A DNA stretch of 64,000 bases from a bacterium (GTDB lineage: Bacteria > Bacillota_I > Bacilli_A > RF39 > UBA660), in the NCBI GenBank assembly GCA_963588075.1, contig CAVAGO010000001.1, forward strand, positions 15,753 through 79,752, in the 5' to 3' direction. The translations under genes and the position numbers were made by a program. The notes below the pieces were generated by a model. It was given only the letters and a program-made list of their open reading frames with translations. It had not been told where the DNA came from and did no database searches. Positions 523-60,323 of this stretch are shown one piece after another. Each line of letters begins with the position of its first letter. The stretch's first letter is position 1.

Positions 523-1732
523 ACTTTATCGTAGAAATAACAATGGTGTGCCCACTGTTTGGTGGGCTGAACTTGACAGTGGTACTAATAGTATCACTGT
601 TTTTTATGGTCTTGTTCAAGGTAATATTCGTAAAGAAGTTTATGCTGTGACTCAAAAAGATGGTCAAAAAGAACTTGAAAGTAGATATAATGATAAGATT
701 AAACAAGGATATACATATCTTAATGAACTTTGTGATATGCAGGGTTTACCCCCCGTGGAGGATGGAGATAATGATACTCTATTTAATTTTCTAAATACTT
801 ATCTACCTAAAGACCTTAGTAATGGAAACAGTAATCTTTTACTTCCAATGCTTGCTAAAACGTATAGTGGTAATGTTTGGAAAAAAGTCAGTTGTATGTA
901 TGGTCAGTATAAGATTAATGGTCTACGTTGTATTATTACTGCTTATACTCAAAATGATATATTTAAACCTGTTAGGCTTCGTTTTCAAAGTCGTGAAGGT
1001 CTTACTTGGCATACTCTTAGCTATCTTGAAGATTATTTGCTTGCTACTATCAATACAAATATTATCGACGATATGATTAATGGATTTGCAGCACTTGATG
1101 GTGAAGTTTATCTTCCAGGTTATACTGTTAATCAAATTAATCATTTTGTTAAAGATGCTAATTGTGTTGAAAATAAACTTCTTCAGTTTTGGTGTTATGA
1201 TATTATGATGGAAGGTAATCAAACTCATAGAAATACATATCGTTATCATATTAAAATGCCTACTCGCTTTAATAATATTAAAGAACATTATAATAATAAA
1301 GAACGATTGATTATTCTTCCTAGCGGATATATTACTAATGATAATGAAGCTATTGACGCTAGAAATCATTTTATTAATTTAGGATTTGAAGGTCTTATAC
1401 TTCGTAATACCGAAACTGATTATCAATATGGTAGACGTAGAGCTAATTATATGGAGAAGTTTAAAGATGCTGCTGAGGGAGATTTTATAATTCTTAATAT
1501 TTATAAAGAAAAGAAACGTGATTTACCTATTCTTCTTTGTAAAAATGATATTAATAATGAAAAGTTTGAAACTCGTTTAAGCACTAGTCATATTGTTCAA
1601 CAGGAAGTTTTATTCGATTCTCAATCTTATATTGGTAGAACTGTTCATATAGAATATGGTGAACGGAGTGGTGTTAGTAGAGTTCCATTTCATATTAAAA
1701 CTGTTGTTATAAATGGAGATACTAGATTATAA
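515..1732 (+). CDS. ATP-dependent DNA ligase
   Basis: Nucleotidyltransferase motifs are present in order: motif I YKINGLR (KxDG-like adenylation lysine), motif III AALDGEVY, motif IV FEGLILRN, motif V YMEKFK. The ATG at 515 is preferred over the GTG at 506. A GC-motif copy sits in frame at 749-767. Confidence 0.8.
   Translation: MNKLYRRNNNGVPTVWWAELDSGTNSITVFYGLVQGNIRKEVYAVTQKDGQKELESRYNDKIKQGYTYLNELCDMQGLPPVEDGDNDTLFNFLNTYLPKDLSNGNSNLLLPMLAKTYSGNVWKKVSCMYGQYKINGLRCIITAYTQNDIFKPVRLRFQSREGLTWHTLSYLEDYLLATINTNIIDDMINGFAALDGEVYLPGYTVNQINHFVKDANCVENKLLQFWCYDIMMEGNQTHRNTYRYHIKMPTRFNNIKEHYNNKERLIILPSGYITNDNEAIDARNHFINLGFEGLILRNTETDYQYGRRRANYMEKFKDAAEGDFIILNIYKEKKRDLPILLCKNDINNEKFETRLSTSHIVQQEVLFDSQSYIGRTVHIEYGERSGVSRVPFHIKTVVINGDTRL
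749..767 (+). repeat. GC-motif copy, G-type with C-run on + strand
   Basis: ccccccgtggaggatggag inside the DNA ligase CDS, read as GLPPVEDGD. Confidence 0.9.
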
Positions 1733-5286: not shown

Positions 5287-5313
5287 ATTATTAACTATTT
5301 AAATATTAAAGTT

Positions 5314-6350: not shown

Positions 6351-6397
6351 TATACTCCCCGTAGAGGACAGAATTAAGTTCATCCTCCACGGGGAGT
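6351..6397. repeat. intergenic hairpin built from one A-type and one G-type GC-motif unit
   Basis: tatACTCCCCGTAGAGGAc-agaattaagttc-aTCCTCCACGGGGAGT gives a 15-bp stem with a single A:C mismatch on + (G:T wobble on -). It starts 7 nt after the stop at 6344 and has no T-run. Confidence 0.9.
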
Positions 6398-9757: not shown

Positions 9758-9907
9758 ATGACAGTTAAAGAACTTATAGAAATACTTAAGACTTGTGATG
9801 AAAAGTCTGAAGTAAAAGTTGAACATTGGAATAGTACAGTATCTTCTATTGAAGAAGTTATTGATTATAGTAAAGAACTTAGTGAAGTTATTATAACTAT
9901 TGAATAG
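9758..9907 (+). CDS. small hypothetical protein (49 aa)
   Basis: The ATG lies 4 nt after the previous stop. MTVKELIEILKTCDEKSEVKVEHWNSTVSSIEEVIDYSKELSEVIITIE. Not in the supplied ORF track because it is under 60 aa. Followed by the hairpin terminator at 9943. Confidence 0.3.
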   Translation: MTVKELIEILKTCDEKSEVKVEHWNSTVSSIEEVIDYSKELSEVIITIE

Positions 9908-9942
9908 TTAATACTGATGCTAATGGTTTATATGTTATATGT

Positions 9943-9975
9943 AAAGCTGGCTCTAATAGAGCTGGCTTTATTAAA
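9943..9975 (+). terminator. hairpin terminator candidate
   Basis: aaagctggctct-aat-agagctggcttt gives a 12-bp stem with two central G:U pairs, followed by the T-rich attaaattt. Confidence 0.45.
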
Positions 9976-9990
9976 TTTAATGATTAGCTT

Positions 9991-10161
9991 GGAACCGCTA
10001 CGAGTGCTACGCACTCTTCGCTATACTCCCCGTAGAGGATGGAATGGTAGTTGCGCTAGTAATATTAGTATAGTTATTAATGATAATGATTATATTGATT
10101 GAATGAATACTAGTCTATTCCATCCTCCACGGGGAGTTGAGCGTAGCGAAGCGGAGCGTTC
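9991..10161. mobile_element. 171-bp element with ~45-55 nt imperfect terminal inverted repeats built on long-form GC-motif units (MITE-like or structured RNA locus)
   Basis: Left arm ggaaccgctacgagtgctacgcactcttcgcTATACTCCCCGTAGAGGATGGAAT (9991-10045). Right arm ATTCCATCCTCCACGGGGAGTtgagcgtagcgaagcggagcgttc (10117-10161). A 71-nt AT-rich spacer separates them. The inner 21 nt pair with one mismatch. The arms carry CGCTN/AGCGN pentamer tracts. Confidence 0.6.
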
Positions 10162-10197
10162 TACTAATCCTTAAACTTATAGTCGTTGGCATGACTG

Positions 10198-10241
10198 AAA
10201 CCTCGGTAGATAAGCTAGTCTTACTACTGAGGTTTATTTTT
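10198..10241 (+). terminator. rho-independent terminator
   Basis: aaacctcggtag / ctactgaggttt 12-bp stem (one G:U pair), 14-nt loop, followed by atttttat. Confidence 0.7.
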
Positions 10242-10273
10242 ATCTTATTGTTAAACTTAAATATATTATAATT

Positions 10274-10456
10274 ATGGTTGCATTTATTGTTCTTCTTGGA
10301 ATTATATTTGGTGGTGTTAAACTATTAGCTGTTGCTAATAATATTAGTGATAGTGAAGCTATGGATAAGTATAGTGGAAAATTATTTGTTGTTGGTATTA
10401 TAGTTTTTGTTATTCTTATGTGTGTTATTGGTAATAATGATGATGGTTTTAATTAA
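10274..10456 (+). CDS. small membrane protein (two predicted TM helices)
   Basis: 60-aa ORF. MVAFIVLLGIIFGGVKLLAV ... LFVVGIIVFVILMCVIG. Confidence 0.4.
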   Translation: MVAFIVLLGIIFGGVKLLAVANNISDSEAMDKYSGKLFVVGIIVFVILMCVIGNNDDGFN

Positions 10457-10465
10457 GATAATATT

Positions 10466-11005
10466 ATGGAATTTAATACTAAACTTAGTAAACTTATAGC
10501 TCGTAGAAAAGTTATAGAAACTAGAAAAAGACTTAATAAAATTGTTCAATCTCCTTTTGAAATAAATAATACTTTAAAAACTGTTTATCAAAATAATGTT
10601 GTAGATAATAATAAAAAATATATTATTACTAGACAAGATTATTGTAGAAATTTTGTTACTATTAATATTGATTTTATTAGTAATATGAAATATTTTGATA
10701 AAGGTGCTAATACTATATTTATACATATATGTAAAAATATAGATTTTAATTCTAATGTAATTAAATTTACCGAAAAAGATATTATTGATGAATATAGTAT
10801 TAGTGTAGAAACTTTTTATAACGGTCTTAATATATTATATAATTTTGATGTTATTAAAGCTACTACTCGTAAATCTGTTTACATAATTAATCATAATATT
10901 ATTTTTAAAGGTAGCATTGGAGATTTTATTAAAGAATATAATAAATATTATGAAAATGTTGATGTTATTATTAATGATAAAGGTAAAGTTATATTAAATA
11001 TATAA
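10466..11005 (+). CDS. RepL-like / winged-helix DNA-binding protein (tentative)
   Basis: 179-aa ORF. ...ANTIFIHICKNIDFNSNVIKFTEKDIIDEYSISVETFYNGLNILYNFDVIKAT...VYIINHNIIFKG resembles the wHTH core and the y.iNP.i.fKG tail of RepL plasmid replication proteins reported in crAssphage (from memory). Confidence 0.4.
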   Translation: MEFNTKLSKLIARRKVIETRKRLNKIVQSPFEINNTLKTVYQNNVVDNNKKYIITRQDYCRNFVTINIDFISNMKYFDKGANTIFIHICKNIDFNSNVIKFTEKDIIDEYSISVETFYNGLNILYNFDVIKATTRKSVYIINHNIIFKGSIGDFIKEYNKYYENVDVIINDKGKVILNI

Positions 11006-11013
11006 TTATAAAT

Positions 11014-11355
11014 ATGGTTAGTTTTAAATCTTATAATATCAATAAGTATAGAAATAAACTTATTGATAAACAAAGAAATAGAAAATATATTAATGTATAT
11101 CTTGATTCTTTAAGAGAATTTTATAATCTTACTAATAATGAAAAGAATGTTTTACTTTATATTAATAGTATATATGATAAAACTGAAACTTACTTTGTTA
11201 TTAATACTATATTTTATAATGATTGTGAAGATAAAACTAAAGTTCCAATATCTTCTATAAAATCTGTTTTATATAGTCTTAAAAAGAAAGGATTTATTAG
11301 TAATTATAAAGATAAACATAATAATATTATTAAAGGTTGTTATGTTATTAAATAA
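11014..11355 (+). CDS. small winged-helix-like protein (tentative paralog of the preceding gene)
   Basis: 113-aa ORF. LTNNEKNVLLYI ... ISSIKSVLYSLKKKGFISN. Confidence 0.4.
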   Translation: MVSFKSYNINKYRNKLIDKQRNRKYINVYLDSLREFYNLTNNEKNVLLYINSIYDKTETYFVINTIFYNDCEDKTKVPISSIKSVLYSLKKKGFISNYKDKHNNIIKGCYVIK

Positions 11356-11421: not shown

Positions 11422-14400
11422 TTATTCAAATATATCTTTAGCTATATCTTTATAAGGTATAATACTAAGTATATTTTCATCAAGTTTATAATAACTATTA
11501 TTATTAGGTAAATCAAGAACACGATTAATACTACGAACAACAGGTATATTACGAACAGCCATAACTTCAAACTTATTCATACCTTTATATCTACCAGTAG
11601 TATATTCCTCAGTAAAATCTTCTTCAATAAGGAATCTAGCAGCCATAGCAGTAGTACCAATTAAGTCATTAATAGTTTGTCCAATAGCAACAGGACTAGA
11701 CCATAATTTTTTACCTTCAGCATAAGCTCCAAATGGAGTAAATGAAGCAGCTTCAGAAGCAAGACGGTCAGCATGATAAAGCATAAGATTATATATAATA
11801 CTTTCATCATCATCTCCACCCATACCAGTTATAGCAATTGCTCCAATAATGGCAGCTCCTACATAAAGTAAATCACCTAAATTACGTCTAATATTTGCTT
11901 TTTCATGTTCAGGAAGAAGTTCATAGTTAAGTTTGAAATTAACAGCAAATGAAAGTAAATTCTTACCATAAACTTGAAATGCTTTAAGAACATCACTTAC
12001 ATTATTAATTTCTCCTGCATTACTTTCTTTAAATGGAATAGTCAAATAATCATAAAGACTAGTATAACTACCTTTTTCAACAGTACCTAGAGTTTCATTA
12101 TAATAACCATTCCAACGATAACGTTTCTTAAAACCGGGATAAAGATGTTTATGATATTGCATAACCATACCACCCCACCAATGTTGTTCAATATTAGCAG
12201 AACCAAGTTTATCATAAACACCATGAACTTTCTTATTTACTTCACGAACTTTATCAATAAATTTAGCATATTCTTTAAGAGTAAGTTTACTATCAGATTT
12301 TATTTGAGCAATTCCATCTTTAAGTTCAAACTGATTATAAATATCTGGAAGTTTAGCAAACTTTTTATCAATATTCTTAATAAGTTCTTTACGTTTAGCT
12401 ATATATTCTCTTTGTTGTTCTTCATTAAGATAAGTTTTAACAAAATCGAATATAGGATTAGCTTTAAATAGATTATATTTAGCTCGTTTTTTATTATCAG
12501 CTTTAGCATCATCCATGAACTTATTGAATTGTTCAAGTAGAGCTTGGTTCTCTCCTCCACGGGGAGTATTTATTACAGACATAAGAGCATCTTGTTCAGC
12601 TTTACGATGATACATTTCTTTACTCATTATATCATAACCACCTCTACCATTATCAACAAGTCTATGAGATTTAAGCATAGCAAATAGCATAACATTTTGC
12701 ATATAATGTTCACCAACAGATTGAGGACTAAATAGTAATCCACGAACTCTACGAATATTTTCTCTAAGACCTTCAGCAGTACTAACTTCAGTTACTCTAT
12801 CAAAGTCAACTACATGACTAAGTTTAATAATAGCATCTTGAAGTGTACTACTATTTTCACTATACATATTAGCCATATAACTAACAGTTCCTTTAATCCA
12901 TTCAGATTTACCAGCTTCCCAATCTTTAAGATTAATATATTCACCAGCAGCTCGTTCCATAAATATATTACTAGAACCAGTAAGAACGTTAGCAATACCA
13001 CCAGTTATATTCATCATCATATATTTACTGCCAGCAATATTTTGAGCAAGAGAACCAAGTTTAACTAGATTAGGAGTTTTATTATCCTTATATTGTTCAA
13101 ATACAAGACGACGAATAAAACTTCTAAGATGTTCACTAGTTCTAGTTTGTTTTTCTTGTTTATATTCAATTTCACCACCAGCACTAGCTTCTCTATTCTC
13201 AGTTATACTACCTTTATAATTTATATCATAAGCAGTATTACTAGTAATAATTTGGTCAGCAGTATAAAGAAGATTTTTAACTGTTTTAATAGCATTATAT
13301 CTATTACTTTCAATTAAGAAACTATTAAATACTTCTTCCCAATTACGATTAAGAATATCATTATGAATTTTATTATTCTTTTCAATAATCTCATCTCTAG
13401 CTTTAATAGCAGCAGCTTTACGTTTACTAAATTCTTCATCACTTTCATTAAGTTCTTTAAATTTAGGTATAGTAGGCAACTGTTGAGTATCTTTATTAAC
13501 TAATTGAATTAATCTAGGATTAGGAATATCATAATCTTTATCAAAAGTTAAATCTTCATTATTTCTCCAACTAGTATTATTAGGAACATTGGCTGTCCAA
13601 CCAAGAAAACTAAGAGCTTGTTCAAAGTAATCTTTAACAGTCATATCTTTAGATTTAGGCAAAGCTGGAAGATAACCCATATCAACATATCGCTTATTAC
13701 TATTAGTAAAACAATACTTTTTCATAAGTTCATTTACTTTATTCATAAGTTCAAGTTGATATTCATTAAGATTAGTATAATTAGGATTATCATATCCTGT
13801 TCCTACTTTGTACTTATTAACAAAACTACTATATTCTGGATTAACAAGTTCTTCTTTAGGAGTAATATGCATTTGATTAATACGTGGTTCATAATTACCA
13901 ACAACAGCTGAACCATCATCTTTAATCATTTGCATAGTGGTCCAAATACGAATAGGTTTAATAGTACGAGTATATGGGTCAAAATAATGATTATCTCTAT
14001 ACCATTGTTTATATTCAACACTATCAATACCATATTTGTCAAGAACTTCTCTTTCTTTTATATAGTAATATTGAGTAGTAGTTTCTCTAGTTCTCTTTTG
14101 AAGAATATTAATTGCAGCAGTTCTATCAATATCAGTCCATTTATCTAAATCTTTAGGTTTAATAATACCGTAAATAGTTCGATTAGGTCTTTCTGCAATA
14201 GTTCCATTTTCTTCAACTTGTTCACTAAACACTTCTAACCATTTATCATAATACTTTTTACCTTTAGCAAAAGCTCTATTTTTATCAAGTTCATATTGTT
14301 TCCAATTATAAGTAACATCACATTCACTTTCAATAAATTCAGCAACACGTTTTGCTTTAGCTTTATCAGTACTCTTTTCACCTCTAGTAATTTCATTAAA

Positions 14401-17400
14401 TACTTCAAAACCAGTCTTGAGTTGTTCTAAATCTTCTTGACTAATATCAGCAGTATTAAGAGTTCTAGTAGCATTATCAAAATATTTTTCAAGTATTTTA
14501 TTAATAGCTTCTCCTACATTAATTTCTTCTTCGCTCTTAGATTTATTACCTGTAAGATAATTATAGAAATCAGCACGATAAATTCTTAATTCATCTTCAG
14601 CAGAACGAATAATACCAACATAAGGCATACCATTACCTTTAGTATATTTATATTTTCTAACTGTTTCAGCTTTTATAAGAGCTGCACGTTCTTCAGGTAT
14701 CTTACGTCCATCAACTACATTAAATTCATCTTTAGCTTGAAATTCCTTGATAGCAAGATTAAGAACACTATTACCTTTATTAGCGTCTTTAAGTTCTTCA
14801 AACGCCCAATTTAAATCTTCTATATCTTTAATATCAAGAATATATCTAGTATTCTTACGAATCCATTCTTTAGCTTCACGATATTCAGGAACTTTCATAA
14901 GTTCTTCCATACTAATAAGAAGATTACCATTAGCATCACGTTGACTTTCATATTTACTAATAATAGAAAGTTGTTCTTTAAGTTTAGAATCAAATCCTTC
15001 TTTAGCTTGCTTATCATAGAACATTTCTTTAATTTTACGAATATTAGTTTGATAAGCACGAAGTCTTTCAGCTACATTTAAATCATGACCAATTTTTTTA
15101 TTACCATCTTCATCATAAAGACTAGTAAGACTATCCATTTGAGCGTATATACGTCCAAGTTCTTCATCTTGACTTTGCGTAGTAACATTATCAGTAGCTT
15201 GACTTAGAATATCTCGTATTCTACCATTAAGTCTTTTATATTCAGCAAATTCTTTAGGAATACCATCATCTCCTTTTTTAAGTCCTAATAAACTTCTTTC
15301 AAGATTTATAATATAAGTAGAATATTCAATAGTAACATTATTACCATCTTCATCTTGAACTGTAATTGGTTTAAGCTGATGAATAGTAGTCATATCAATA
15401 AATTTAGCTTTATTAGATAAAGCAATAAGATGTTCAATACTATTTATACCAAATTTTTGTTCAGCTTCAATAGCAGCATCTCTATATTTCTTTATCTTTT
15501 CTTCCCAAATAGGATTATTAGGTTGAATTAATCTACCATCATCATCAATAATACTATCGAGACTAACAGATTTACCATCTTTAGCAGCTCTAGATTTAAG
15601 TTCTTTAAGATAATTTCTAAAGTCATTAGCTTCTTTAATACCATTAAGACGACCTTCTTCAACAGTACCCATTACATCTTTAAGTATATTCTGCAATACA
15701 AAGTTACGATTAGCACGAATATCTTGTATCCAATAATCCATAAATCCAGTATCACCATAAGCATCAAATTCTTTCATAAGACCACTTATATAATTAGGAT
15801 TAGTAGTGCGTAATTGAATCCATCTTTCAAACCAATCTTTTCTAGCAGAATGTACAGTAGTATTAGAATCAACTTGATTAACTAATTTTTGAATCTTTCT
15901 AATATTCTCTTTAGTTTTATCATCAAGATTTGTACTATCAATATCAATTTCGCTAATAAGTTTATATTTATTCTTAAATGTATTAGCACTAAGAATAACA
16001 TCTAAGAAACGATTTTGAAGTTGTTCATCTTTAAGAACTTTACCAATAACATCTTTATCGTTAATAGGTTTATCAATACCGTCAATTTTAATAAAACGAT
16101 TAATATCATTAAGAATATTATTAGCTTCAACATCTATATAATTAGCAATGACTGATAATGAAAATTCAGAATTATCAGAAAGACTACTACTATCAAGATA
16201 ATTAATTTCAGCATTATTAAGAGCGTTTAATACATTTTGAGCAGCAGGTTGACCATGACGAACAGCTCTTGAAATAATTAAACTTGCATTTTTAGCAAAT
16301 CTACCAATAGGAGTTTGGTCATCAACACTACTATATCTATCAGTATTACTTGTAACTCTATCTATTTCATTTTCATTAATTTCAATAAATAATCCAAGTT
16401 TACTATCTTCAATATTAGGATATTTAGCTTTATATTGCTGTAAATCATCGCTTAAATTAATAGCAGTAGTTCCATTAATGTTAAGATAAAATTTATCATT
16501 AATAGTATATATAGTATTATTCTCAAAAGGAGTATTCATAAAAGGTTGGAAATACTCATCAGATATATATTTACCATATAGTTCAGGAACTTCTTTATAA
16601 CCTTTATTTACAGCTTCATTAATATTATCTTTAATACCATCAATAAATTTATCTTGTTTTTCTTGTTGAGTAAGACCTTTATAAAGAAGAACAGCTAATG
16701 GTTTATGAATATTATTATTAGCTATAATACTTGGTTCAATACTATTATAAGTTTCAAATGATTCAAGTCTATCAATAGGATAATAAGCTAAAGTTCCATC
16801 ATAAGTTCCTTTAATATATAAATTTCTATTAATTCTAATAACATTAATAGCATCTCCATTTCTTATTATTCCTACATTATCAAGATTTTCTTGACCATTA
16901 AAAGTAATAATACCACTTCTTTTTAGACTATAATTAATTTTATTATTAGTAAGTCTTTTAAATGTATAACTAGGACAATTAAAACTATTATAATTCTTAC
17001 GAATAAAACCAATTATATCTTCAACATTATCTTTATCAACAAAACCATAACTATTAATACCTTTCATAGCTATATCTCCAATAGCTATTCCGCCCTCACT
17101 CAATCCTCTAAGGGGAGTATTACTTATAAGTCTACTAATATTTCTAGTTCTAAACTTATGACTTTCAACAATAAAAGCATATTTAACTAAATCAAGAGCT
17201 GTAAGTTTAATAAGAGGATTAGGATGATTCCAAGCTCTATCAAACAATCTATGGGCTTCATCATTAGTAATATCACCTTGTATGTAATTAATATATTGAA
17301 TATTTACATTACGACGATTATTTCTTTCATCATTAGCAACTATTTCAATATGTTCAAATACACTACCATCTTGACTAAAATTACGTTTAATCCAATCAAC

Positions 17401-20400
17401 TTTCTGAGCAGGAGTAAGTCTAGCAAATACATCAATTTCAGTTTGTGTAGGCTCAAATATATTTTTAACTACAACATCATCAGTTTTAATATTAACTAAT
17501 GTACCACTAACTCTACCAACTTCTAAAGCTCTAGATTGTCCAGTACCATATTCTTTAATATATTTAGGATGAACAAAATCTCCATTAACAACAGTAACAG
17601 GTAAATTAAGATAAGAACTACCATTATTACCTACTTCTAGTTTATTAATAAGATAATCTTTATAGTCATTATATAACTTTTCAGTCATTATTCCACCTTT
17701 AGTCCATTCAGCTATTCTATATACATAATCAATAAATACAGGATTAGCAGTTTCAAATACTTGTTGAGTAGCTTTAACACTAAGAGCAGTACTCATTTGT
17801 AAAAATGCAGCTAAACTAGGATAACTACTTTTAGATATATCTGATTTAATAAACGCATCTATACCACCACTAATATCAGGAAATACACTCTCTAACAGCA
17901 AGGTTTGACCCCCCGTAGAGGATGGAGCATAAATATTACTATTTTCAATAACAGTTCTAGCATCTCTAAATACTTTATCACTAGCATAAAAACTTTGTTT
18001 AGCACCATATTTATCAGCACTAAGAATATTAAGATTATTACTTATATCCTGTCCGATTGAGTTTAACCGATTGAATTGTGCTAGAACATAAAGGTCAAAT
18101 AAAGCCTGCTGAACGCCATTCATTTCCCCTCTAAGACGAGATTTATATGCGTCTGATGAAAATATAAGGTCAGGTGATGAAAATGCGTCAGAAACGCTTA
18201 AATTGAATAATTTCTTGAAAGTTTCACCATAACTTTTATCAATAGTTTCAATTAGCTTTTTACGTCCAGCAAAATTAACTTTTTCACCAAAACCAAGATT
18301 ATGAGCAACTTCTCTAATAGCTTCAGTAAGCGGATTTTTAGTACCTTCCGCAAGAACACTATTGGTTTCTTTCCATTTACGAACTAGTATATCAATAGCA
18401 GGTTGCCACATAAATCCAATAGCAGTATCATAATTACTTCCAAAGTCAACAATAGTTTTAAAAGCATTAAACGTATAAGTATTTTCATTATGTATAGCTC
18501 CCTCTTTCATAACATCAAGAATATGAGCAGTAGTCTGAGAACTATAAGGATTAATCAAATAACCATCAACATTCTTATCATCTCCAGACCAACCAAAATT
18601 CTTATGAGTAATACGAATATGTTTATTACCAATAGTTTCAACATTTTCTTTACCATATCTATTAACAGCTTCTTGCTCACTAATCACATCAGTAGTGTAC
18701 ATAACTTTAATACCTTCGCTATGGTTAGCTTTAGTAACATTTCCAATACTCATAAAAGTATCTCGATTAACACTGATACCTTTAAGTTTAATACCAGAAG
18801 TAGCAGCATCAAACCAATCAAGTTGAGTAAAGAAATCACTAGGAGCAACAGTTGTTTTATTAGCACCAACTATTTCTGCATAAGTTTCATTAGCTTCTTT
18901 GACATTTTCAAAGTTAGAAGTAGTAGTATTTTCTTCAAATGCAGCAGGATTATTAAATATATCAATAAATGATTGAATAATAGCATTAGTTCTAGCAGCT
19001 TGACTACTTGTATCCTCCACGGGGAGTTTCAAGTATGATTCGTAAGACTTAAGTCCACCATCATTAGCAATTTTTTCAACAACTTTAAGATTACCATTAT
19101 AACCTTCAAGAGTAGCATTAATAGCATCTTCGCTATTTTTTAAAGAAGCTCTAATATTACCTTGTTTATTATAAGTCTTACCAAGAATTTTACGACTAGC
19201 TTTATCTACATTATCTTTAACATAATTAATATATCCTACTTCATCTTTAGTATATCTAGCATGAGTAATTTCAGTTGGAACACCTTTAACAAGATTAAAT
19301 GTTTTAGACATACCATAAACACTATCAACGTCAAAGTCAGAACCAGTTTGAGTAACCCATTCATCAGGAACAACAACAGTACTACCATAAGCATCTGGAA
19401 GAAACTCTTTAACATACATAATACATATAGATTGTTTACCTTCAGTAGGAATACGATAACCAATCATAGTACGTAAGCTATCAGGAACTTGTTCAATATT
19501 TAATCCTTTAAGTTTACTACTCCATCTAGGAAGTTTAATTTCAGTATAATAAACAGGAGTGCCATCAACTTCTCCAATCTTTTTATATTGAAGTTTACTA
19601 TCTGTTTGAGTTTGTTTATCAACTTTAAAACCAAAATCAGATAACTGAGCAGCATGCCAACCACTAATAAGTTGCCTAGTAATATTAGTATTAAAATAAC
19701 TATTAGCAATACTTTCAAGTTTACTATTAATATTAGACAAAAATAAAGGAAGATTATTAAATCCAGCACTATCTAAATCGAAAAACTCAAGAAGAGCTTT
19801 TTCAACTCCTTGTTGTTGAGCATTTTCTTTAAATCTATCAAAAAATACAAAACGATTAAGATTTTTAATAGTACCATTAGAATTTAAATCAATATGACCA
19901 TTACTATCTAATCCAATACCAAGTTCAGCACAAGTTTTTTCAAAACTATTTCTAATATTAGCTACATAGTTATTAAATACTTTATTTTTAAGTTCATTAA
20001 GTTCAGTTCGATTAGGAAGATTATCAAGCATTTTCTTCATAATCTGAATAGCAGCTTTATTACTAGCATCAACCATATGTTGAGGAACTTCTTGCTGACG
20101 ATAAAGATAATTATAACTAAATAGTTCAGAATTATCAAATACATTATTATCAAATTCTTTAAGTGCTTCATCAGTTAAAACACCATCGTTATTCCAAAGT
20201 GTCATTCTATTATGTTGCGTAACTTTAACAGTTTCAACAGTATTAATTTGATGAACACCTCTATTAGTCATTATATTATAAACTTTTTCAAGTTCTGTTC
20301 CTTTAATAAGTTTAGGAATAAGAACAAACTCAGCGTTCTTTACTTGTCTAGGAACTTCAATACCAACAGTAGTATCATAATATAAATCATAATAGAAATT

Positions 20401-23400
20401 CTTTTGAATTTGAACTTTATTAGCAAATTTAGTCCAATCAATTTTATCTATTGGAGTATCATCTGTAAGACTTTGAATAAGTCCAGCATATTTATCTAAT
20501 TCACCAGCAGCAGTAATACGACGAATCCATTCTTCAAGAGTAATATAAGATTGAGCATCATTAACATTAACTCCACCTTTAAATGGTTCTAGTATTCGTT
20601 CTCTATCTTTTTTATCAAGTCCAGCTTTTTTAAGTTGATTATCAAGTCTATCAATAACAACTTTATCAGAAGCTTTAAAAGTATTATAAATAGTAACACC
20701 TCTAAATTTATCTTGAAGAACTACTTTTTTACGTTTAGTAACTCCATTAACAGTATAAGGAACAGTAACAGCATTATCTTTAATAGTTATATCATATAAA
20801 TCAGTAGCTATATCTAAATCATTTTTAGTAAAATCAGTATTACCAAAAGGATTACCACTAGCTTGTACTTCTTTAATACGTTTTAGAATAGTTTGACCAT
20901 TCTTATAAAAACTTTGGTCACCACCATACATATCGTACATACTATCTCTAACAAGATAATCATTAACTAGAAATTCAGCTAAAGATTCATTATTAATCTT
21001 ATCATCAATAAATGTACCATATTTATTTTTAAGTTCTTTATAACCATTAGTTATATATTCATTTAACCAATCAGCAACAGTATCTTCAAGAGCAATACGT
21101 TGTTCTCCATTAAGAACTACTTGATTATTAACATAGCTAAGTCCACGTGTAGACCCCCCGTAGAGGATGTCAATAGTCTTACTATACCCAATTAGTTCAT
21201 TAAATGCTCCATTACTATTAGGAGTAATTTTACTAACTAAACGTTTAAAACTAAATACTCTACCAGCTAAAACTTTGTGTCCATCTTTAGTAGTAAATAC
21301 ATTACCTTTTCCATCTTTATGGTATTGATTATAAAAATGTTCAGGTTTATTATTATAAGTATCACTAAATTCAAAATCTCCATTAGTTAAAATAGGATTA
21401 CCATTAGCATTAGTTTTAAACATTACATTAACAGCTTGAGCCATATTAGTAAGTTCTTGAATAGCTATATTATAATATTGTTTAAATAATGGATGTTCTC
21501 TATTTATAATTTTAGTTCCATCTTCTAGTTGACTACGTAATCCAGCAAGACTATATCTAGGAGCAGTAATAGTAAAGTTTTTAGGAGCATCACTAGGTAT
21601 GGGAAGTAAATAATTAGCAGTAGGAGTTTCAGAATTATTAATATCAGTCATAAATAATCCCATAGCAGTAATTAAATAATCACCATCACTCATACTACGA
21701 TATAAGTCATTATTGTTATTATCTAATTCGCTAATACCATTAAGAAGAGAAGTCTTAAACATACTACGAGCATATTCAGTAAGTTTAGGAGTTCCATTTC
21801 CAACTCTTCTAAATAATCCATAATTAATTATATTACCATTACTATCTCTATGTTCAAGAAGTAAATTACTATAATCATATTGATGACTAGCAAACTTTTG
21901 TCTAGCATAAGCTTCAACCATAGCGTTTTGCTCTTCGACAGTAGATTTATCATCATTAATAATTTTAGCAATATTAGTAATAAAACTTCTATTAATAACA
22001 TCAGAACTTAAATTACCTTCAGGATTACGAGAATTAAGTTCAACAGGAATATAAATAATATCTTTAAAAACATCAGCCATTTGATATATAATAGAAGTAT
22101 CACCTCTATTAATAAAACTATCAGGCATTTTAGTTCCTTTATCCTTTTTAAGCGCTTCTACATATTTATTATAATTTTCAACTGTACGATTAATAACATT
22201 AGCAAAATTAATAAGATTATTAGCCATAGCTACACGACCAATCTTAGCAATAGCTAAATTAAAACTAGCTTGATTAATATCTGGAAATATTTCTTTAAAA
22301 GCATCATATAAATAAAGATTAGCATGAGGAGTATTTTTATATCTATCATATATACGAAACTTTTCACGAGCAGTAGGAACACGATTAGTAATAATATTAT
22401 TCTTAACATTATTATAAAAAGTATTCTGTAAAATAGTACGAGAATCAGTATTAGGATTAGTTACACGAGCACGAACATAACTATTACCATTAGAATCAGT
22501 TTGAATATAAGTTTCAATTTTAGATATAATAGGTTTATTAAACACCATCATATACTTATTAGCAAATACTTTATTTTTGCTAAGTAAATCATGTAATTGA
22601 ATTAAACATTCACAATTTGGAATAGTTTCAGATATACGTTTAAGACTAGCTATAAAATTATCTACATTACTAGTATCAGCACTAGCATATAATATTTTAG
22701 ATAAATAATTAGCATCAGAAAAAGTAACAACTCCTAATTCATTATTAGTATCAAAAGGATAACTTCCATTATTAAGTTGAGAAGCAGCAGTAAGTTTAGG
22801 TAAACTTGCAAGATGATATTTAATAATTTCTTCTACGTGTTTATTAAAATCTTTAACTTCACCAATACTTAAATTCCAAAGTTGAGTCATTAAATCAATA
22901 CCATCATCTATACTATTTTCATCACCTTCAGTAGAAGTTTCATCAAGATAACCGCCTAATTCTTCATAATCAGTAGTTTGATATAACTCATCTCGTTTAA
23001 TAAGTTTAGCTACATTTTTATTATTAAAAAGAGCTTCATTAAATTCAGTATTAGTTAAAGAACGAAGTAATGCTCCATAATTAAAATCTTTAGCATCACC
23101 ATATTTACGAAGAAATGCTCCAAGACCATTAATTTTAATAGCAGGACTTGGATTATTAATAAAACTATTAAGTTCATTATTTTTAACTTCATCACTTCCG
23201 GCTAATTTCTTAGCACGTTTAAGTCCAGCATTAATAACAGTTTCATTAGTACGTTTTTTAATTTCATTAAAATTTAATGGAGCACCATTATATAGAAAAT
23301 TAAAACTAAGTTTGTTCATAATATCAGCCATATAAGTAATAGCTGTATCTCTAGCTTTAATTGTACTAAACAAACCACGTTCTTCTTTTTCAGCAACAGA

Positions 23401-23764: not shown

Positions 23765-26700
23765 CTACATACAGCTAAAACTGATACGTCCTGTGTCAAG
23801 CAAAGTGGCAAATTCGGGCTGTTGTGCTATTGGCAAACGGCTAGTCAATTCAGCCATATTCACCACTATATCATCATCAACACTACTAAACATATCAAGT
23901 CCATCATTAAGATTATCATTATTATAATTATAATCTTGACTATTATCTTCATTAGGATTTTCAGTTTGTTCTGTACTAACAGTTTCTTCTTCAAATTGAA
24001 AAGTTTCTTGAATAGCTTCTTGATTACTTTCTTTAGGCATTTTTTTAATAGCTTTATAAGCATCTCTAGCAGCAGCTAATAAACTATCTTCATTAATCTT
24101 AATACCTAACATATCAGCAATAACTTCAAGAAGTTTACTAAATAAAGTCTTACGTTTATTAACTTTTCTATTATCATATTTAATTTCATTAAGTGCAGTC
24201 ATAAGAGCATTACTAGTAATACTTTCAACTAGAAATTCTTCAAGAGCTTCACTTGTATTAAAGTTCTCAAATAGATAAGGTTTAAGTCTTTCTTTAGTAG
24301 CATCATCTTGAGTATCAAGCCAAGCTTTAAATTTATCATATATAGGTTTAACTAAAGCAAGAGCTTGTTCAGTATTATATTTAGTATAAAGTTGTCTATG
24401 TAAACTTTCATGAAGTATAATATTAACAACTCGATAAACTCTTTGATCAGCAATAGCAGAACGATTAAGCTCAATAGTATCTGTATCACGATGATAAACA
24501 GCATTAACTTGATTACCATTATTATCAGTAATACTATTTACAACTTGAATATTTTTAGGTAAAATATCAATCTTTTGAAGAGAATCAATATAATCAAGAG
24601 CAGTTTGATCATTAGCAAAATACTTTTTAAGTCCACGAGTTAAATTCTTAGCAGTTATAGCAGATTCAAAAGAATTAAAATTAATAGCATTAAGAGTATC
24701 ATCTAACATGAACTCTGATAGCTGTTCAGGTATTGCTCCATCCTCCACGGGGGGTCTACCCTCAAGTTCATAAGTAATATCGAGTTTAGAATGAATATCT
24801 ATTTGCCAATTACCAGCAGTTTCATTAGTATTAGTATTAGCTAATTTAGTTCGAACTAAACCATTACTAATAATAAAATCTTGATAACTATTATAACTAT
24901 AAGTTTTACCATCAATATTTATAATAGTTTTACCATTTTCACGATAAATATATTTATTAGTTTTATCATTAGTTTTTGTACTATCATTAATAAAATCTTT
25001 ACTAATAGCAAATTGAGCATAGTTAAACATTTCATCAATAACAGGACGAAGAGCATTATCTAATTCGTCAATAGTATTAGCATTAATGCCATAACTTTTA
25101 CCTATTTTAAAAGCACTATTAACAACATAAGGAGAATTAATAATAATATTACGTTTATAATTACCAGCATCAGAATTAATAGTAAAAGCATAATCTTTAC
25201 CATTAAAATGTGCACCTTTAACATAAAAGCCTATATTAGTAGGATTAATACTAATTTGAAGTCCAGTATTTCTATCTCCGTTAATAAGTTTATTATTTCC
25301 AAATATATCTCCAAGACTTTGTTTAAGTTCACCAAAACTTATTTTACCACTAATATAATCTTTACAAAGATTATTAACTTCATTCTTAATAGAATTAATA
25401 ATACGTCGAGCATCACCTTTAAGTAGATTACTATTTAATGGAACTTGTTTACAAAAAGCATATAGAGAAGTACCATCACTACTTGGAATACTAATAACAG
25501 GCATACCATTAGTAGTAAGATTTTCAATAATAGTAGGTTTACTTTCTCCATTAAGATATAATTGACCTTGTACAACTACACCAAGTTTATTAATATCTTC
25601 GTTATAATTAACTACTGTTTCTTGTACATCATTCCATTCACCATTAGTATCATCAATAGTATTAAGAACTCCATATTTAACGTTAACAGCTTTAACTTTA
25701 CCTTTAAAATCACCTTTAACTATTGTAATAGCTTGATCATAACTATTAAGAAGATTATTAAACCAACGATTAATACTAGCTTCATGACTATTTTCATAAG
25801 GTTGATTAAATATATATTTAGTAAGATTAACAAGATGTCCAGCTAAATCAAAACTTGCAACAGGAGTAGTAAAATCTCTAACTATATCAGGATATTTAGT
25901 TTCAAATTCTTTAAATAGATTAACAAGTTCTTCTTGTGTAACTTCTTCTTTAACAGCAAGTTCATATAAATGACCAATAAATTCTTCGTCAAATCTATCG
26001 CCATCAAGAATACTAATTAAAGCATCTTTAAGCGGAGAAACAACTTGACCATTTTCAGCATGAATATTATATTTCCAACCTTGATTAATCATATCATAGT
26101 TACCAAACTTATCAATATTTGGAACTCCTATATAACCAATAATTGTATCATTAGCAAATATATCAATACGTTTAAGTTTAACATTATATATAGCTTCTAA
26201 ATAATCACCTTGTTTAATACTAGTAAATGCTTTAACATTTTCATTCTCTACTATATACTTAAGATTAACATTATTAGTATGTTCAACTTGAAGTCTTTCA
26301 AGACGTTCTTTAGCAATACCATCAACATATTGAACAAATTGTCTAGCATTAAGTTTTTTAATAGTTGATTCGTCAGTAGCACGATATTTACCTTGATTAT
26401 TAGTGCTGGCGTAAAGATAGTTTTTTATTTGATTAAACAAGTAATTTTTAATAATTTTATTACCTGTAATACTATCTATATATTCAACTAATTGACCAAT
26501 ACTAAGATATACTTTACCATTAACAATTTTACCTCTAGTATTACCTTCACTATCAACACTATTAGCAAAATCATTCATAACAGCTTCTATATTACGTTCA
26601 TTACCTGTAACAGTAGCATAAGTAGCATTAAGTAATAAACGTCTAGTACTATCATCTTGAACAGAACTATATAAACTACCACCTGTAAGACCATCAATAA

Positions 26701-40211: not shown

Positions 40212-41108
40212 TTATTTAGGAAAAGTAAAGTTATAAAAGAACTCATTCCAACCACTATCATCATCACTTTGTTCATCTAATAAAATACTAGTCTTAATAT
40301 CTTTCTTCATACTCTCCCATAGATAGAAAGGATTAGTTCCATATTGACTAGCAGAAAGATTAAACACAGGATGTTTATATCCTCTCATAAGCATACGAGC
40401 CATACAATAATAAGTAAGACCTTGAATTAATTTACCATTAGCAGGTATAACAGGAATTTCACAATGATAATTATCACTATATTGAGTTTCAACATCTTTA
40501 TAAACAACTGTTATACAAGTATCATTAAAATTAAGTTCAATAGTATTACCTCCAATAAGAATATAATTATGATTTGACTTATCATATCCTCCACGAGGGG
40601 TCTGACAATGAGAATGAACTTCATGCTGACATCTTAGACATTCAGTATTATTATGAACTGTATAAACAACAGGATTACATCCTACTTTACCAGTATCAAT
40701 AACTTCTCTAGTTCTAGAACCATTAGGACAACAATCATCGGGCATACCAAGATAGTCTTTATTAGTAGCACGCTCCGGACTTTCGTCCTCCGCTTGACCC
40801 CCCGTAGAGGATGGAGCAGATTCAGTATCACCACATCTATATTTACTAGTATCAGCTCTAGGTACTTCACAACCATTACTATCATATACTTTAAGACCGT
40901 CATCAATAAGACAACATTTACTTTTAGCTATCTTATTAATGACGGTTAGTTTCATTTTCTTATCAACTTTACGAAGAACTTTAAGTTCATTCATAGCATC
41001 AACACACCAAGCAGGAACTCTAGGAATCCAATCACTTCCATCAGGATTGAAATCATTATCAAGTTTACCAATTATATGTTCTATCGTAATCGTTTTATTA
41101 TTTGCCAT
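40212..41108 (-). CDS. structural-module protein with Cys/His-rich insert, 298 aa
   Basis: ATG at 41106-41108 (MANNKTITIEH) is chosen because the upstream 40 codons overlap the preceding gene. A Cys/His-rich segment (7 Cys) is bounded by two GC-motif copies. Confidence 0.65.
   Translation of the reverse strand: MANNKTITIEHIIGKLDNDFNPDGSDWIPRVPAWCVDAMNELKVLRKVDKKMKLTVINKIAKSKCCLIDDGLKVYDSNGCEVPRADTSKYRCGDTESAPSSTGGQAEDESPERATNKDYLGMPDDCCPNGSRTREVIDTGKVGCNPVVYTVHNNTECLRCQHEVHSHCQTPRGGYDKSNHNYILIGGNTIELNFNDTCITVVYKDVETQYSDNYHCEIPVIPANGKLIQGLTYYCMARMLMRGYKHPVFNLSASQYGTNPFYLWESMKKDIKTSILLDEQSDDDSGWNEFFYNFTFPK
40585..40606 (-). repeat. GC-motif copy, G-type with 1 mismatch
   Basis: tatcctccacgaggggtctgac, read as QTPRGGYD. 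Confidence 0.8.
40768..40818 (+). repeat. GC-motif copy, long form, A-type
   Basis: gcACGCTCCGgactttcgtcctccgcttgaCCCCCCGTAGAGGATGGAGCA. It starts with the same ACGCTCCG as the reverse complement of the 10117-10161 arm. Read as SAPSSTGGQAEDESPERA. Confidence 0.85.
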
Positions 41109-45685: not shown

Positions 45686-45815
45686 GACTTTTATTAAATC
45701 GTGTATAACTAATCAGCTAGGCTTAAAACTAGCCAAATTCGGCAAGCTATACTCCCCGTAGAGGATGGAGCAGGTTTGAATCAGTCAATCAAACCTAGCT
45801 AATCAATCTCATACA
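45686..45815 (+). promoter_or_regulatory. possible diverged fourth copy of the conserved intergenic module, interrupted by a GC-motif copy
   Basis: AGACTTTTat..., ACTAATCAGCTAGGC (compare ATTAATCGACTGATAGGC in copy C), CTTAAAAc, then the motif plus a hairpin, then AATCTCATACAATCTTA (compare TTCTCATTATATTATA). Its orientation is opposite to the flanking - strand genes. The similarity is weak. Confidence 0.3.
45746..45772 (+). repeat. GC-motif copy, A-type, intergenic
   Basis: gctatactccccgtagaggatggagca, immediately followed by an 8-bp hairpin aggtttga-atcagtcaa-tcaaacct (45773-45797). Confidence 0.9.
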
Positions 45816-54737: not shown

Positions 54738-54740
54738 AAC

Positions 54741-55517: not shown

Positions 55518-55569
55518 AATTTTATAAACTTTAAATGGTGATGCTTATTCAGCACCACCATAATTAATA

Positions 55570-60296: not shown

Positions 60297-60323
60297 GTGT
60301 AGACCCCCCGTAGAGGATGGAAC
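60297..60323 (+). repeat. GC-motif copy, A-type, intergenic
   Basis: gtgtagaccccccgtagaggatggaac, within the 63-nt spacer between the stop at 60333 and the start at 60269. Confidence 0.9.

What the first reader, a model, noticed from the sequence alone, without database searches (positions are those of the whole stretch)
9943..10241. 171-bp inverted-repeat element built from long-form motif units, isolated between two terminators: candidate master copy or structured ncRNA
The 367-nt gap between the small ORF ending at 9907 and the gene starting at 10274 has no credible ORF. It contains, in order, a terminator-like hairpin (9943-9975), an element with ~45-55 nt imperfect terminal inverted repeats (9991-10045 and 10117-10161) around a 71-nt AT-rich spacer, and a clean rho-independent terminator (10198-10241). 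The inner 21 nt of the arms pair with a single A:C mismatch. The outer parts are CGCTN/AGCGN pentamer tracts. The arm sequence recurs as single in-frame copies at 26988-27034 and 40768-40818. So this locus holds the most complete version of the family, and it sits where an independent ~200-250 nt transcript would be made. An RNA carrying both polarities of the motif could base-pair with every dispersed copy. Alternatively this is a MITE-like insertion in a spacer.
Basis: partly seen in the sequence, partly recalled or inferred. Interest (0 to 1): 0.8.

Follow-up and report, generated by a model that had tools for sequence, protein, structure and literature searches.

The report
CrAssphage's evenly spaced GC-rich box, doubled
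The inverted repeat is real, but it is not a master copy or a jumping element: it is two head-to-head copies of a short GC-rich "box" that crAssphage and its relatives keep about 30 times per genome, evenly spaced and often at the same places, and neither the box's function nor what recognises it is known.

Summary
The window is a strain of the prototypical crAssphage (Carjivirus communis, 93-97% nt identity). The described anatomy is correct: hairpin T1 (9942-9970), an inverted repeat (arms 9972-10045 and 10117-10179, 71-nt AT-rich spacer) and terminator T2 (10198-10248).

The arms are two "long-form" copies of a dispersed motif, ACYCCCCGTRGAGGA(TGGA). It occurs 21 times in the window and 33 times in the reference genome, against about 0 by chance. 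It lies on both strands and, inside genes, in several reading frames.

The family is old and constrained, not mobile:
- Delmidovirus and Diorhovirus carry the same core, and Jahgtovirus a variant, at similar density. It is absent from the 50 kb of crAss001 scanned and from bacterial genomes.
- 8 of 17 mappable sites are syntenic between genera.
- Clusters are spaced far more regularly than chance.
- 16 of 17 close pairs are inverted.

Across 87 distinct spacer variants from related assemblies, common polymorphisms keep + strand RNA pairing through G·U.

Best reading: a structured + strand RNA end or leader module ahead of gp42 and RepL, built from two boxes. The box reader is unknown. The "master copy" and MITE readings are rejected. 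The trans-acting RNA idea remains open. A paralogous unit sits upstream of the second RepL gene.

The parts
9942..9970 (+). T1: terminator-like hairpin followed by a U-rich tail (to about 9982)
   Evidence: I5.: -18.0 kcal/mol on the + strand against -11.7 on the - strand. helix 1: one-sided changes keep the pairs (GU:74/AU:13).
9972..10045 (+). Left arm, a long-form box. It consists of an AT-rich lead (AAATTTAATGATTAG), GGAACCGCT, a small hairpin (10002-10016), CGCTAT and the core ACTCCCCGTAGAGGATGGAAT (core 10025-10039).
10002..10016 (+). Small hairpin GAGTGC-TAC-GCACTC inside the left arm
   Evidence: A G-C to A-U double change occurs in 3 of 87 sequences (helix 3). Other long-form copies carry different stems at this place.
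10046..10116 (.). 71-nt AT-rich spacer with TGAT-type repeats and an internal 16-bp hairpin (about 10064-10101)
   Evidence: helix 7. It is homologous to the spacer of the paralogous unit.
10117..10179 (-). Right arm, a long-form box in the opposite orientation (core 10123-10137, ACTCCCCGTGGAGGA). It includes the AGCGN/CGCTN pentamer tract and the CTAATCCTTAAACTT tail.
   Evidence: It is invariant in 87 sequences except for the motif's R position.
10180..10197 (+). Small hairpin hp3 between the repeat and T2
   Evidence: columns 281-298. GC/GU and GU/GC switches in 9 sequences.
10198..10248 (+). T2: intrinsic terminator (16-bp bulged stem, then AUUUUUAU)
   Evidence: I9.: -19.0 kcal/mol, z = -5.0. 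helix 9: UG:52/UA:31/CG:4 and an AU to GC double change; no broken cells.
10274..10456 (+). gp42 homolog (60 aa, hydrophobic), the first gene after T2
10466..11005 (+). RepL-family replication initiator. This allele is divergent from the reference gp43.
   Evidence: PF05732, 28 bits, cut-off 20.3; 73% nt identity over 224 nt.
6354..6397 (.). Tight inverted pair of short boxes right after the stop codon of the upstream gene (aligned to the reference Gam-like gene gp31)
   Evidence: -26.9 kcal/mol on the + strand, -33.8 on the - strand.
748..762 (+). short box
12553..12567 (-). Short box in the 4070-aa virion RNAP gene (sense; encodes TPRGG)
17104..17118 (-). Short box (1 mismatch) in the RNAP gene
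17908..17922 (+). Short box in the RNAP gene (antisense; encodes PSSTGG)
19013..19027 (-). Short box in the RNAP gene (sense, another frame; encodes LPVED)
21153..21167 (+). Short box in the RNAP gene (antisense, another frame; encodes ILYGGS)
24741..24755 (-). short box
26985..27034 (+). Long-form box inside the 1956-aa gene (antisense, in frame)
33032..33046 (-). Short box, one member of an inverted pair with 33476
33476..33490 (+). Short box, one member of an inverted pair with 33032
40587..40601 (-). Short box (1 mismatch) in the gp50 tail-tubular gene (sense; encodes TPRGG)
40765..40817 (+). Long-form box in gp50 (antisense; encodes PSSTGGQAEDESPER)
45751..45765 (+). short box
50532..50546 (+). 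Short box, one member of an inverted pair with 50799
50799..50813 (-). Short box, one member of an inverted pair with 50532
54117..54131 (+). short box
60303..60317 (+). short box

Best explanation
Identity (well supported). The element is two long-form copies, in inverted orientation, of a genome-wide crAss "box", ACYCCCCGTRGAGGA(TGGA). It sits in the non-coding spacer that ends the rightward replication-gene block and precedes gp42 and RepL.

Mechanism (inferred). The spacer is read as + strand RNA. It folds into T1, a long hairpin made by the two boxes with an AT-rich apical hairpin, hp3, and the terminator T2. Together these form a transcript-end or attenuator module. It closes the upstream operon and gates read-through into gp42 and RepL.

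The hairpin exists because two boxes happen to face each other. The boxes themselves serve a separate, genome-wide role. That role does not depend on strand or reading frame, requires even coverage of the genome, and is read by a factor that has not been identified.
For: Shown for the element:
- The window is C. communis. The spacer block 9909-10460 is 97% identical to the reference, while both flanks are swapped or deleted.
- The fold is strong, and stronger on the + strand: -111.5 kcal/mol (z = -9.8) against -89.5.
- T1 and T2 also fold better on the + strand.
- Across 87 distinct variants, 99% of cells are paired. Three pairs show double changes, against 0.3 in shuffles. The covariation score is 0.031, against at most 0.015 in the slid controls.
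- The seven common stem polymorphisms I tallied by hand from the per-pair table are all A/G opposite U. They keep G·U pairing on the + strand only.
- Most pair-breaking variants are rare, at 4 or fewer of 87 sequences; the exceptions are listed under evidence against.
- RepL lies 225 nt downstream of T2.

Shown for the family:
- 21 copies in the window and 33 in the reference, against about 0 expected.
- The same core occurs at similar density in Delmidovirus and Diorhovirus, and a variant in Jahgtovirus.
- 8 of 17 mappable sites are syntenic between genera.
- The core is almost invariant within the species; positions Y and R are the main ones that toggle, by transitions.
- Cluster spacing has CV 0.46-0.58, against 0.94 for random placement.
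- 16 of 17 close pairs are inverted.
Against: - No transcript data exist for this spacer.
- T1 lies upstream of the repeat. If T1 is efficient, little RNA would cover the repeat, and no promoter was found (one search covers sigma-70 consensus only).
- The core stems never vary, so they say nothing about selection on pairing.
- The commonest change in the core, C/T at 10128, creates an A·C mismatch on the + strand.
- The short box hairpin at 6354-6397 folds better on the untranscribed - strand.
- Two further pair-breaking variants are not rare: column 86 (8 of 87) and the base pair of T1, columns 33/63 (42 of 87).
- The paralogous unit lies between divergently oriented genes, so it is not at an operon end.
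- Single boxes inside genes on either strand cannot act as RNA hairpins.
- The structure tested was derived from one of the aligned sequences. That inflates the percentage of paired cells.
Confidence: 0.4

Rival explanations
1. DNA-level paired site. The two boxes are binding sites for a phage-encoded sequence-specific DNA-binding factor. With the AT-rich spacer they form a boundary, origin or maintenance element linked to RepL. The two flanking terminators keep transcription out of it.
For: - The family is independent of strand and reading frame, evenly spaced and positionally conserved. That fits recognition on duplex DNA.
- A paralogous unit (box, homologous AT-rich spacer, long-form box) lies at 95745-95905 of the reference. 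It sits in a divergent intergenic region just upstream of two 27-nt direct repeats and the second RepL gene.
- In Delmidovirus, box pairs sit at both borders between the oppositely transcribed genome arms; in Diorhovirus a single long-form box sits at the one border (the convergent one) covered by the 50 kb fetched.
- The motif's R position varies freely even when this breaks the hairpin.
- Motif "dialects" differ between genera, as expected for co-evolution with a phage protein.
Against: - No candidate protein was identified.
- RepL gp43 is dispensable. One contig lacks it yet keeps the repeat, and no RepL is annotated in cr11_1.
- There are no iterons next to the window's element.
- The common polymorphisms in the outer and central stems are G·T mismatches at the DNA level. 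A cruciform is therefore not what is conserved.
Confidence: 0.3
2. Source of trans-acting RNA. The long hairpin is transcribed and processed, for example by RNase III, into short sense and antisense box RNAs. These pair with the boxes present in either orientation in most long phage transcripts and act as a global regulator.
For: - The hairpin stem carries the box in both polarities.
- The conserved core is 15-16 contiguous positions.
- The degenerate positions Y and R vary by transitions only, across 33 sites and about 6-22 strains each. That is what G·U wobble would tolerate.
- The + strand fold of the locus is maintained.
- There are two such double units per genome.
Against: - There is no expression or processing evidence.
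- Y and R degeneracy is also common in protein recognition sites.
- Boxes show no orientation bias relative to transcription (13 sense, 18 antisense, by my hand tally).
- Even spacing is not predicted by this model.
- The wobble-capable variants are not significantly enriched on the mRNA strand (my tally).
Confidence: 0.12
3. MITE-like selfish element or master copy. The 171-nt unit is a non-autonomous transposon with terminal inverted repeats, and the single copies are solo ends or its progeny.
For: - It has a TIR-spacer-TIR layout.
- A second unit has a homologous spacer, so the unit was duplicated at least once.
- In gp50 the long-form extension is an indel relative to homologs of 77-82% identity.
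- One contig joins 93.68 kb to 28.02 kb through the long form.
Against: - The element is present in all 87 variants, and no empty site was found.
- There is no target-site duplication beyond trivial TA.
- The copies are syntenic between genera and under purifying selection.
- Spacing is more regular than random insertion would give.
- The sequence between paired copies inside genes encodes conserved protein.
- No transposase is annotated.
Confidence: 0.08

Closest known systems
REP/BIME elements of enterobacteria
   Same: - Short GC-rich repeats dispersed through the genome.
- Often found as inverted pairs just after genes, where they form RNA hairpins at transcript ends.
- Also proposed as sites for DNA-binding proteins.
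   Different: - The crAss box is not itself palindromic.
- About 60% of copies lie inside coding sequence.
- Copies are evenly spaced and syntenic between genera.
- No RAYT-type transposase is annotated in the genome.
Stoperators of cluster A mycobacteriophages (L5 gp71 repressor sites; from my own knowledge)
   Same: - About 30 asymmetric sites of fixed sequence spread over a phage genome.
- The consensus differs between related phages.
- C. communis has a plasmid-like carrier lifestyle that would call for genome-wide silencing (PMC10983915).
   Different: - Stoperators are about 13 bp, mostly intergenic and oriented with transcription.
- crAss boxes are 15-25 nt, mostly intragenic and found in both orientations.
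- No repressor has been identified.
Rickettsia palindromic elements (RPE) and yeast mitochondrial GC clusters (from my own knowledge)
   Same: GC-rich repeats in an AT-rich genome that are tolerated in frame inside protein-coding genes, typically in variable loops.
   Different: - RPEs are 100-150 bp palindromes.
- They are regarded as selfish insertions with decaying sequence.
- The crAss core is 15 nt, nearly invariant and evenly spaced.
Chi, DUS/USS and similar genome-wide "self" words
   Same: - An asymmetric word found on both strands and inside genes in any frame.
- Density and coverage appear to be selected.
- Inverted pairs occur behind genes.
- Lineage-specific dialects exist.
   Different: - Those words are 5-12 nt, are read by host machinery and are abundant in the host genome.
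- The crAss box is at least 15 nt and was not found in bacterial genomes other than crAss contamination.
Attenuator/leader structures upstream of plasmid rep genes (pT181, pIP501 type; from my own knowledge)
   Same: Long stem-loops followed by an intrinsic terminator immediately ahead of a replication-initiator gene.
   Different: - No countertranscript or alternative pairing was shown here.
- gp42 lies between T2 and RepL.
- The repeat persists in a strain without RepL.

Membership tests
MITE (miniature inverted-repeat transposable element) | Terminal inverted repeats around a short non-coding core | tested here: met
   Arms 9972-10045 and 10117-10179 with a 71-nt spacer.
MITE (miniature inverted-repeat transposable element) | Target-site duplication flanking the element | tested here: not met
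   The flanks are ...GGCTTTAT|TAAATTT... and ...AAACTTA|TAGTCG.... They share nothing beyond TA.
MITE (miniature inverted-repeat transposable element) | Presence/absence polymorphism, with multiple full-length copies at non-homologous sites | tested here: not met
   The element is present in all 87 variants. There are only two full units per genome. The single boxes are syntenic between genera.
REP/BIME | The unit itself is an imperfect palindrome, located outside genes | tested here: not met
   The box is asymmetric. Most copies are intragenic.
REP/BIME | An associated RAYT (Y1 HUH) transposase | not tested
   None is annotated in BK010471. No dedicated search was run.
Rfam RNA families | Match at gathering score | tested here: not met
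   There are 0 matches in the window. The best sub-threshold hit is a plant miRNA-precursor hairpin model at 31 bits against a gathering score of 130, on both strands.
Structured RNA (generic) | Fold more stable than shuffles, on one strand preferentially | tested here: met
   + strand -111.5 kcal/mol (z = -9.8); - strand -89.5.
Structured RNA (generic) | Pairs kept through compensatory or wobble changes | tested here: inconclusive
   Three pairs show double changes and many show one-sided G·U changes. The covariation score is 0.031, against at most 0.015 in slid controls. However, the core stems never vary, divergence is only about 3%, and the structure came from one aligned sequence.
Structured RNA (generic) | A discrete transcript exists | not testable with these tools
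   No expression data were available.
Intrinsic terminator (T2) | GC-containing stem followed by a U-tract, strand-specific, with pairing conserved | tested here: met
   and helix 9 (100% of cells paired; UA/UG/CG series). The simple scan missed it.
Stoperator-type repressor sites | Sites mostly intergenic and co-oriented with transcription | tested here: not met
   About 60% of sites are intragenic. The split is 13 sense and 18 antisense (my tally).
Stoperator-type repressor sites | A cognate repressor binds the sites | not testable with these tools
   This needs a binding assay.
Host Chi/DUS-type word or host CRISPR repeat mimic | Motif abundant, or arrayed, in host genomes | tested here: not met
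   I scanned 185,579 species genomes with the 19-mer. Multi-copy hits appear to be crAss-derived (one contig is 98 kb; low-GC bins), judged from contig sizes and titles without alignment. The singletons are near the roughly 17 chance matches I estimate for a 19-mer. Shorter cores were not tested.
Replication origin of a RepL replicon | Initiator gene adjacent, AT-rich unwinding region, repeated initiator sites | tested here: inconclusive
   RepL is 225 nt downstream of T2 and the spacer is AT-rich. Iterons were seen only next to the paralogous unit. RepL is absent in one strain that keeps the repeat.

The most novel reading that the evidence does not exclude
Intestiviridae crAss-like phages carry a genome-wide addressing system. 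About 25 evenly spaced clusters of a 15-25-nt box are held in place over genus-level divergence, even inside essential genes. The boxes are read by base pairing with RNAs made from the two double-box hairpins, or by a dedicated phage protein. The reading marks, silences, nicks or organises the whole genome, for example during the plasmid-like carrier state of the most abundant human gut phage.
Probability: 0.15. Interest if true: 0.9.

Novelty: new variant of a known kind. Interest (0 to 1): 0.62.

Why it matters
CrAssphage is among the most abundant and prevalent human gut phages (PMC10983915), and its regulation, replication and carrier state are poorly understood.

A 15-nt word kept about 30 times per genome overrides protein-coding freedom in all frames. 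It is spaced far more regularly than chance and conserved in place across genera. That marks a cis-acting system that someone can now test directly, through a binding partner, nick mapping or small RNAs.

I found no paper in the held library that contains the sequence or describes such a motif in crAss-like phages.

Practically, the box also explains assembly breaks and possible chimeric joins in crAssphage metagenome assemblies.

Tried and rejected
- Rfam at gathering score and at E-value threshold: nothing real.
- tRNA/tmRNA scan: none.
- Coding ORF in the spacer: the 61-aa ORF stays open in 85 of 87 sequences, but it shows no codon-position bias and has no Pfam hit.
- Host repeat or host CRISPR-repeat mimic: not found in bacterial genomes.
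- Promoter for the virion RNAP: the boxes lie in both orientations and inside genes. In phi14:2, early transcripts have no common upstream motif.
- Diversification marker: diversity in the flanks is only mildly raised (0.05-0.065 against a genome mean of 0.042) and shows no asymmetry.
- Orientation alternation of successive boxes: 21 of 32 alternate, but this is not significant once the close pairs are removed (my tally).
- Wobble-capable variants on the mRNA strand: 24 of 40, not significant (my tally).
- Literature searches for the sequence and for crAss repeats found nothing relevant. The phage-plasmid paper does not mention the motif.
- Simple terminator scan: called neither T1 nor T2.
- Resemblance of one dialect (CTCCTACGGG, locus L126) to 16S rRNA positions about 338-347: recalled from memory only, not tested, and treated as coincidence.

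Full report
WHAT THE WINDOW IS. The window is a strain of the prototypical crAssphage, Carjivirus communis. Window 8000-12000 matches nine crAssphage records at 93-96% identity. The whole window is colinear with BK010471 from about 17.4 to 82.6 kb. Genes run rightward up to about 11.4 kb. From the 4070-aa virion RNA polymerase gene onward they run leftward.

THE OBSERVATION.
- The gap is 9908-10273.
- T1 (9942-9970) is a 13-14-bp hairpin with two G·U pairs and a U-rich tail. It folds at -18.0 kcal/mol on the + strand and -11.7 on the - strand.
- The inverted repeat has a 30-nt inner arm pair (10016-10045 and 10117-10146, 87% complementary, 71 nt apart). Outer pairing reaches 9972-9987 and 10164-10179.
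- The inner 20 nt differ at a single position.
- T2 (10198-10235 plus a U-tract) folds at -19.0 kcal/mol with z = -5.0.
- The region 9976-10245 folds at -111.5 kcal/mol on the + strand (z = -9.8) and -89.5 on the - strand. As single-stranded DNA the repeat folds at -40.2 kcal/mol (z = -9.5).
- No Rfam family and no tRNA match.
- The 61-aa ORF across T1 and the left arm stays open in 85 of 87 variants. It has no Pfam hit, and its polymorphisms fall evenly on the three codon positions.

THE ARMS ARE COPIES OF A GENOME-WIDE BOX.
- The core ACYCCCCGTRGAGGA occurs 21 times in the window (19 exact), with none in 100 shuffles.
- The complete reference genome has 33 copies of the 15-mer at up to 3 mismatches, against about 0.15 in shuffles.
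- The logo spans about 25 nt: GGKTAGACYCCCCGTRGAGGATGGA. Eleven positions are invariant. Two positions vary by transition only, Y at -1 and R at +6.
- Seven of the 33 copies are long forms, with about 60 extra nucleotides upstream. These comprise an AT-rich lead, CCGCTN, either a small hairpin of variable sequence or more CGCTN pentamers, and CGCTA. The element under study is two long forms facing each other.
- Copies lie on both strands (18 + and 15 -).
- Inside genes they lie in several frames in either orientation. In the RNA polymerase gene the box reads TPRGG, LPVED, PSSTGG and ILYGGS.
- The constraint is therefore on the nucleic acid, not on the protein.

THE FAMILY IS OLD, CONSTRAINED AND PHAGE-SPECIFIC.
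- In gp50 (tail tubular protein) the two boxes encode PSSTGG and TPRGG. Both peptides form conserved islands in an otherwise hypervariable stretch, in homologs down to 44% identity.
- Delmidovirus cr11_1 carries 31 copies of GAGACCCCCCGTAGAGGA.
- Diorhovirus cr3_1 carries 17 copies in 50 kb. Jahgtovirus crAss002 carries the variant TCCCCCGTAAAGGAG about 16 times in 50 kb, again with CGCTTCGCTCC extensions. The first 50 kb of Kehishuvirus crAss001 carry none.
- The box is the most over-represented 9-mer in every related contig tested.
- Of the 17 reference sites that can be mapped through protein alignment, 8 fall within 14 nt of a cr11_1 site.
- Within the species, each site was compared across 6-22 strains. 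The core is almost never lost (one deletion and one replaced allele). Most change is transition toggling at Y and R, which never show a transversion; scattered substitutions elsewhere in the core are infrequent.
- Flanks are slightly more variable than the genome mean, and the core less so.
- A scan of 185,579 bacterial and archaeal species genomes found the 19-mer in multi-copy only on contigs that look crAss-derived (judged from contig sizes and titles, not aligned). The remaining hits were singletons, near the roughly 17 chance matches I estimate for a pattern of this length.

ARRANGEMENT.
- Clusters of boxes are spaced much more regularly than random placement. The CV is 0.46, 0.58 and 0.51 in the three genomes, against about 0.94 expected (P at most 0.008 each).
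- In the reference the largest gap is 7.5 kb, against 14.4 kb expected (P = 0.0008).
- Boxes closer than 500 bp are inverted in 16 of 17 cases.
- Random insertion does not give even coverage, so density appears to be selected.
- The excess of inverted pairs could reflect function. It could equally reflect the instability of close direct repeats.

THE LOCUS IN CONTEXT.
- The block 9909-10460 (spacer plus gp42) is 97.3% identical to the reference. Both flanks vary between strains. On the left, the window lacks gp41 and has another gp40 allele. On the right, RepL is a divergent allele.
- One contig lacks RepL gp43 altogether yet keeps the repeat.
- The reference genome has a second, paralogous unit at 95745-95905: short box, AT-rich spacer with recognisably homologous TGAT-rich sequence, then a long-form box. 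It lies between divergently oriented genes, just upstream of two 27-nt direct repeats and the second RepL gene.
- Thus both double units sit at the borders between the two oppositely transcribed genome arms, and both sit next to a RepL gene.
- Delmidovirus has box pairs at both such borders. In Diorhovirus, a single long-form box sits at the one border (the convergent one) that the 50 kb fetched covers.

RNA OR DNA? I collected 87 distinct variants of the spacer. I tested the structure predicted from the window sequence alone.
- 99.0% of cells pair.
- Three pairs (8 cells) show changes on both sides, against 0.3 in shuffles and 1-2 pairs in slid controls.
- The covariation score is 0.031, against at most 0.015 in the slid controls.
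- Seven common stem polymorphisms that I tallied by hand from the per-pair table (columns 41, 71, 75, 160, 168, 183 and 327) are all A/G opposite U. They keep pairing through G·U on the + strand only.
- On the - strand, or in a DNA cruciform, those positions would be mismatches.
- Most pair-breaking variants are rare. The exceptions are one A/C site (8 of 87), the base pair of T1 at columns 33/63 (42 of 87 unpaired), and the box's own R position (C/T at 10128).
- T2 shows a UA/UG/CG series and an AU to GC double change. The small hairpin in the left arm shows a GC to AU change.

This favours a + strand RNA whose fold matters. The caveats are:
- divergence is only about 3%;
- the core stems never vary;
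- the structure came from one of the aligned sequences;
- T1 lies upstream of the repeat;
- no promoter was found.

Two observations point the other way. The R-position polymorphism breaks the + strand stem in about 40% of variants. The short box hairpin at 6354-6397 folds better on the untranscribed strand. The hairpin therefore looks like a by-product of two boxes that each obey the box consensus.

CONCLUSION.

"Master copy" and "MITE insertion" are rejected, for three reasons:
- the element is fixed in the species;
- it lacks a target-site duplication;
- it belongs to a family whose members are syntenic across genera and under purifying selection.

The best-supported reading is a structured + strand RNA end or leader module (T1, box hairpin, hp3, T2) ahead of gp42 and RepL, made from two boxes (confidence 0.4). 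A DNA-level paired site (boundary, origin or maintenance element) is nearly as likely (0.3).

The more interesting result is the box family itself. In layout it resembles REP/BIME elements, stoperators, RPEs and Chi/DUS words, but it fails a defining feature of each one tested. I found no description of it in the held literature. What reads the box, and its function, remain unknown.

Noticed in passing
window 7922-7931 (reference BK010471 24466-25491): The window lacks about 1 kb that the reference carries here. That stretch overlaps the region annotated as the dUTPase intron and its HNH endonuclease gene, so this strain probably has an intron-less dUTPase gene.
   Followed up: no
window 9803-9908 (reference 27372-27957): gp41 (N4_gp49/Sf6_gp66 family, pfam13876) is absent from the window, and gp40 is a different allele. 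The spacer with the repeat starts exactly at the end of this variable segment.
   Followed up: partly
window 10466-11355: The RepL gene is a divergent allele (73% nt identity over 224 nt to the reference gp43) that starts 10 nt after gp42. It is followed by a 113-aa ORF with sub-threshold winged-helix/DnaD_N-like hits.
   Followed up: partly
L112 (IMGVR_UViG_3300003506_000001), 5287-5776: This 10.7-kb contig joins reference 93.68 kb directly to 28.02 kb through a 73-nt overlap, which is the shared long-form box. It also lacks the 767 bp holding RepL gp43. It is either a real recombinant or deletion form, or an assembly chimera caused by the repeat.
   Followed up: partly
L005 46017-46090 (BK010471 96017-96090), outside the window: Two 27-nt direct repeats (TTTATACCATACATGGAATAGATTTCG) lie between the paralogous double-box unit and the second RepL gene. 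They could be iterons or operators.
   Followed up: no
L190 (crAss001, MH675552, 1-50000): The first 50 kb of crAss001 lack the box. They do have another over-represented word, CTCCAGAAGGA: 9 copies at up to 1 mismatch, on both strands and inside several genes. This may be an analogous system with a different sequence.
   Followed up: partly
window 52300-57200: There are off-diagonal self-similar matches at 63-67% identity within the tail/BACON-domain gene region. They are consistent with the known tandem BACON repeats.
   Followed up: no
window 40212-41108 (gp50), alignment A1 columns 101-215: The segment of the tail tubular protein between its two boxes is hypervariable and full of indels across homologs, while the box-encoded peptides stay fixed. 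The long-form extension (QAEDESPERATN) is missing in homologs of 77-82% identity.
   Followed up: partly
reference genome; window copies listed: In the leftward-transcribed arm, + strand copies mostly carry GTAG and - strand copies GTGG. This follows the local GC skew, and it also gives G·U rather than A·C when paired copies fold in the mRNA. The cause is not resolved.
   Followed up: partly
L126 2193-17534: In this distant relative the box dialect is CCCCGTAGGAGAAG. From memory, its reverse complement contains CTCCTACGGG, which matches a conserved 16S rRNA stretch (the EUB338 region). This was not tested and is probably coincidence.
   Followed up: no
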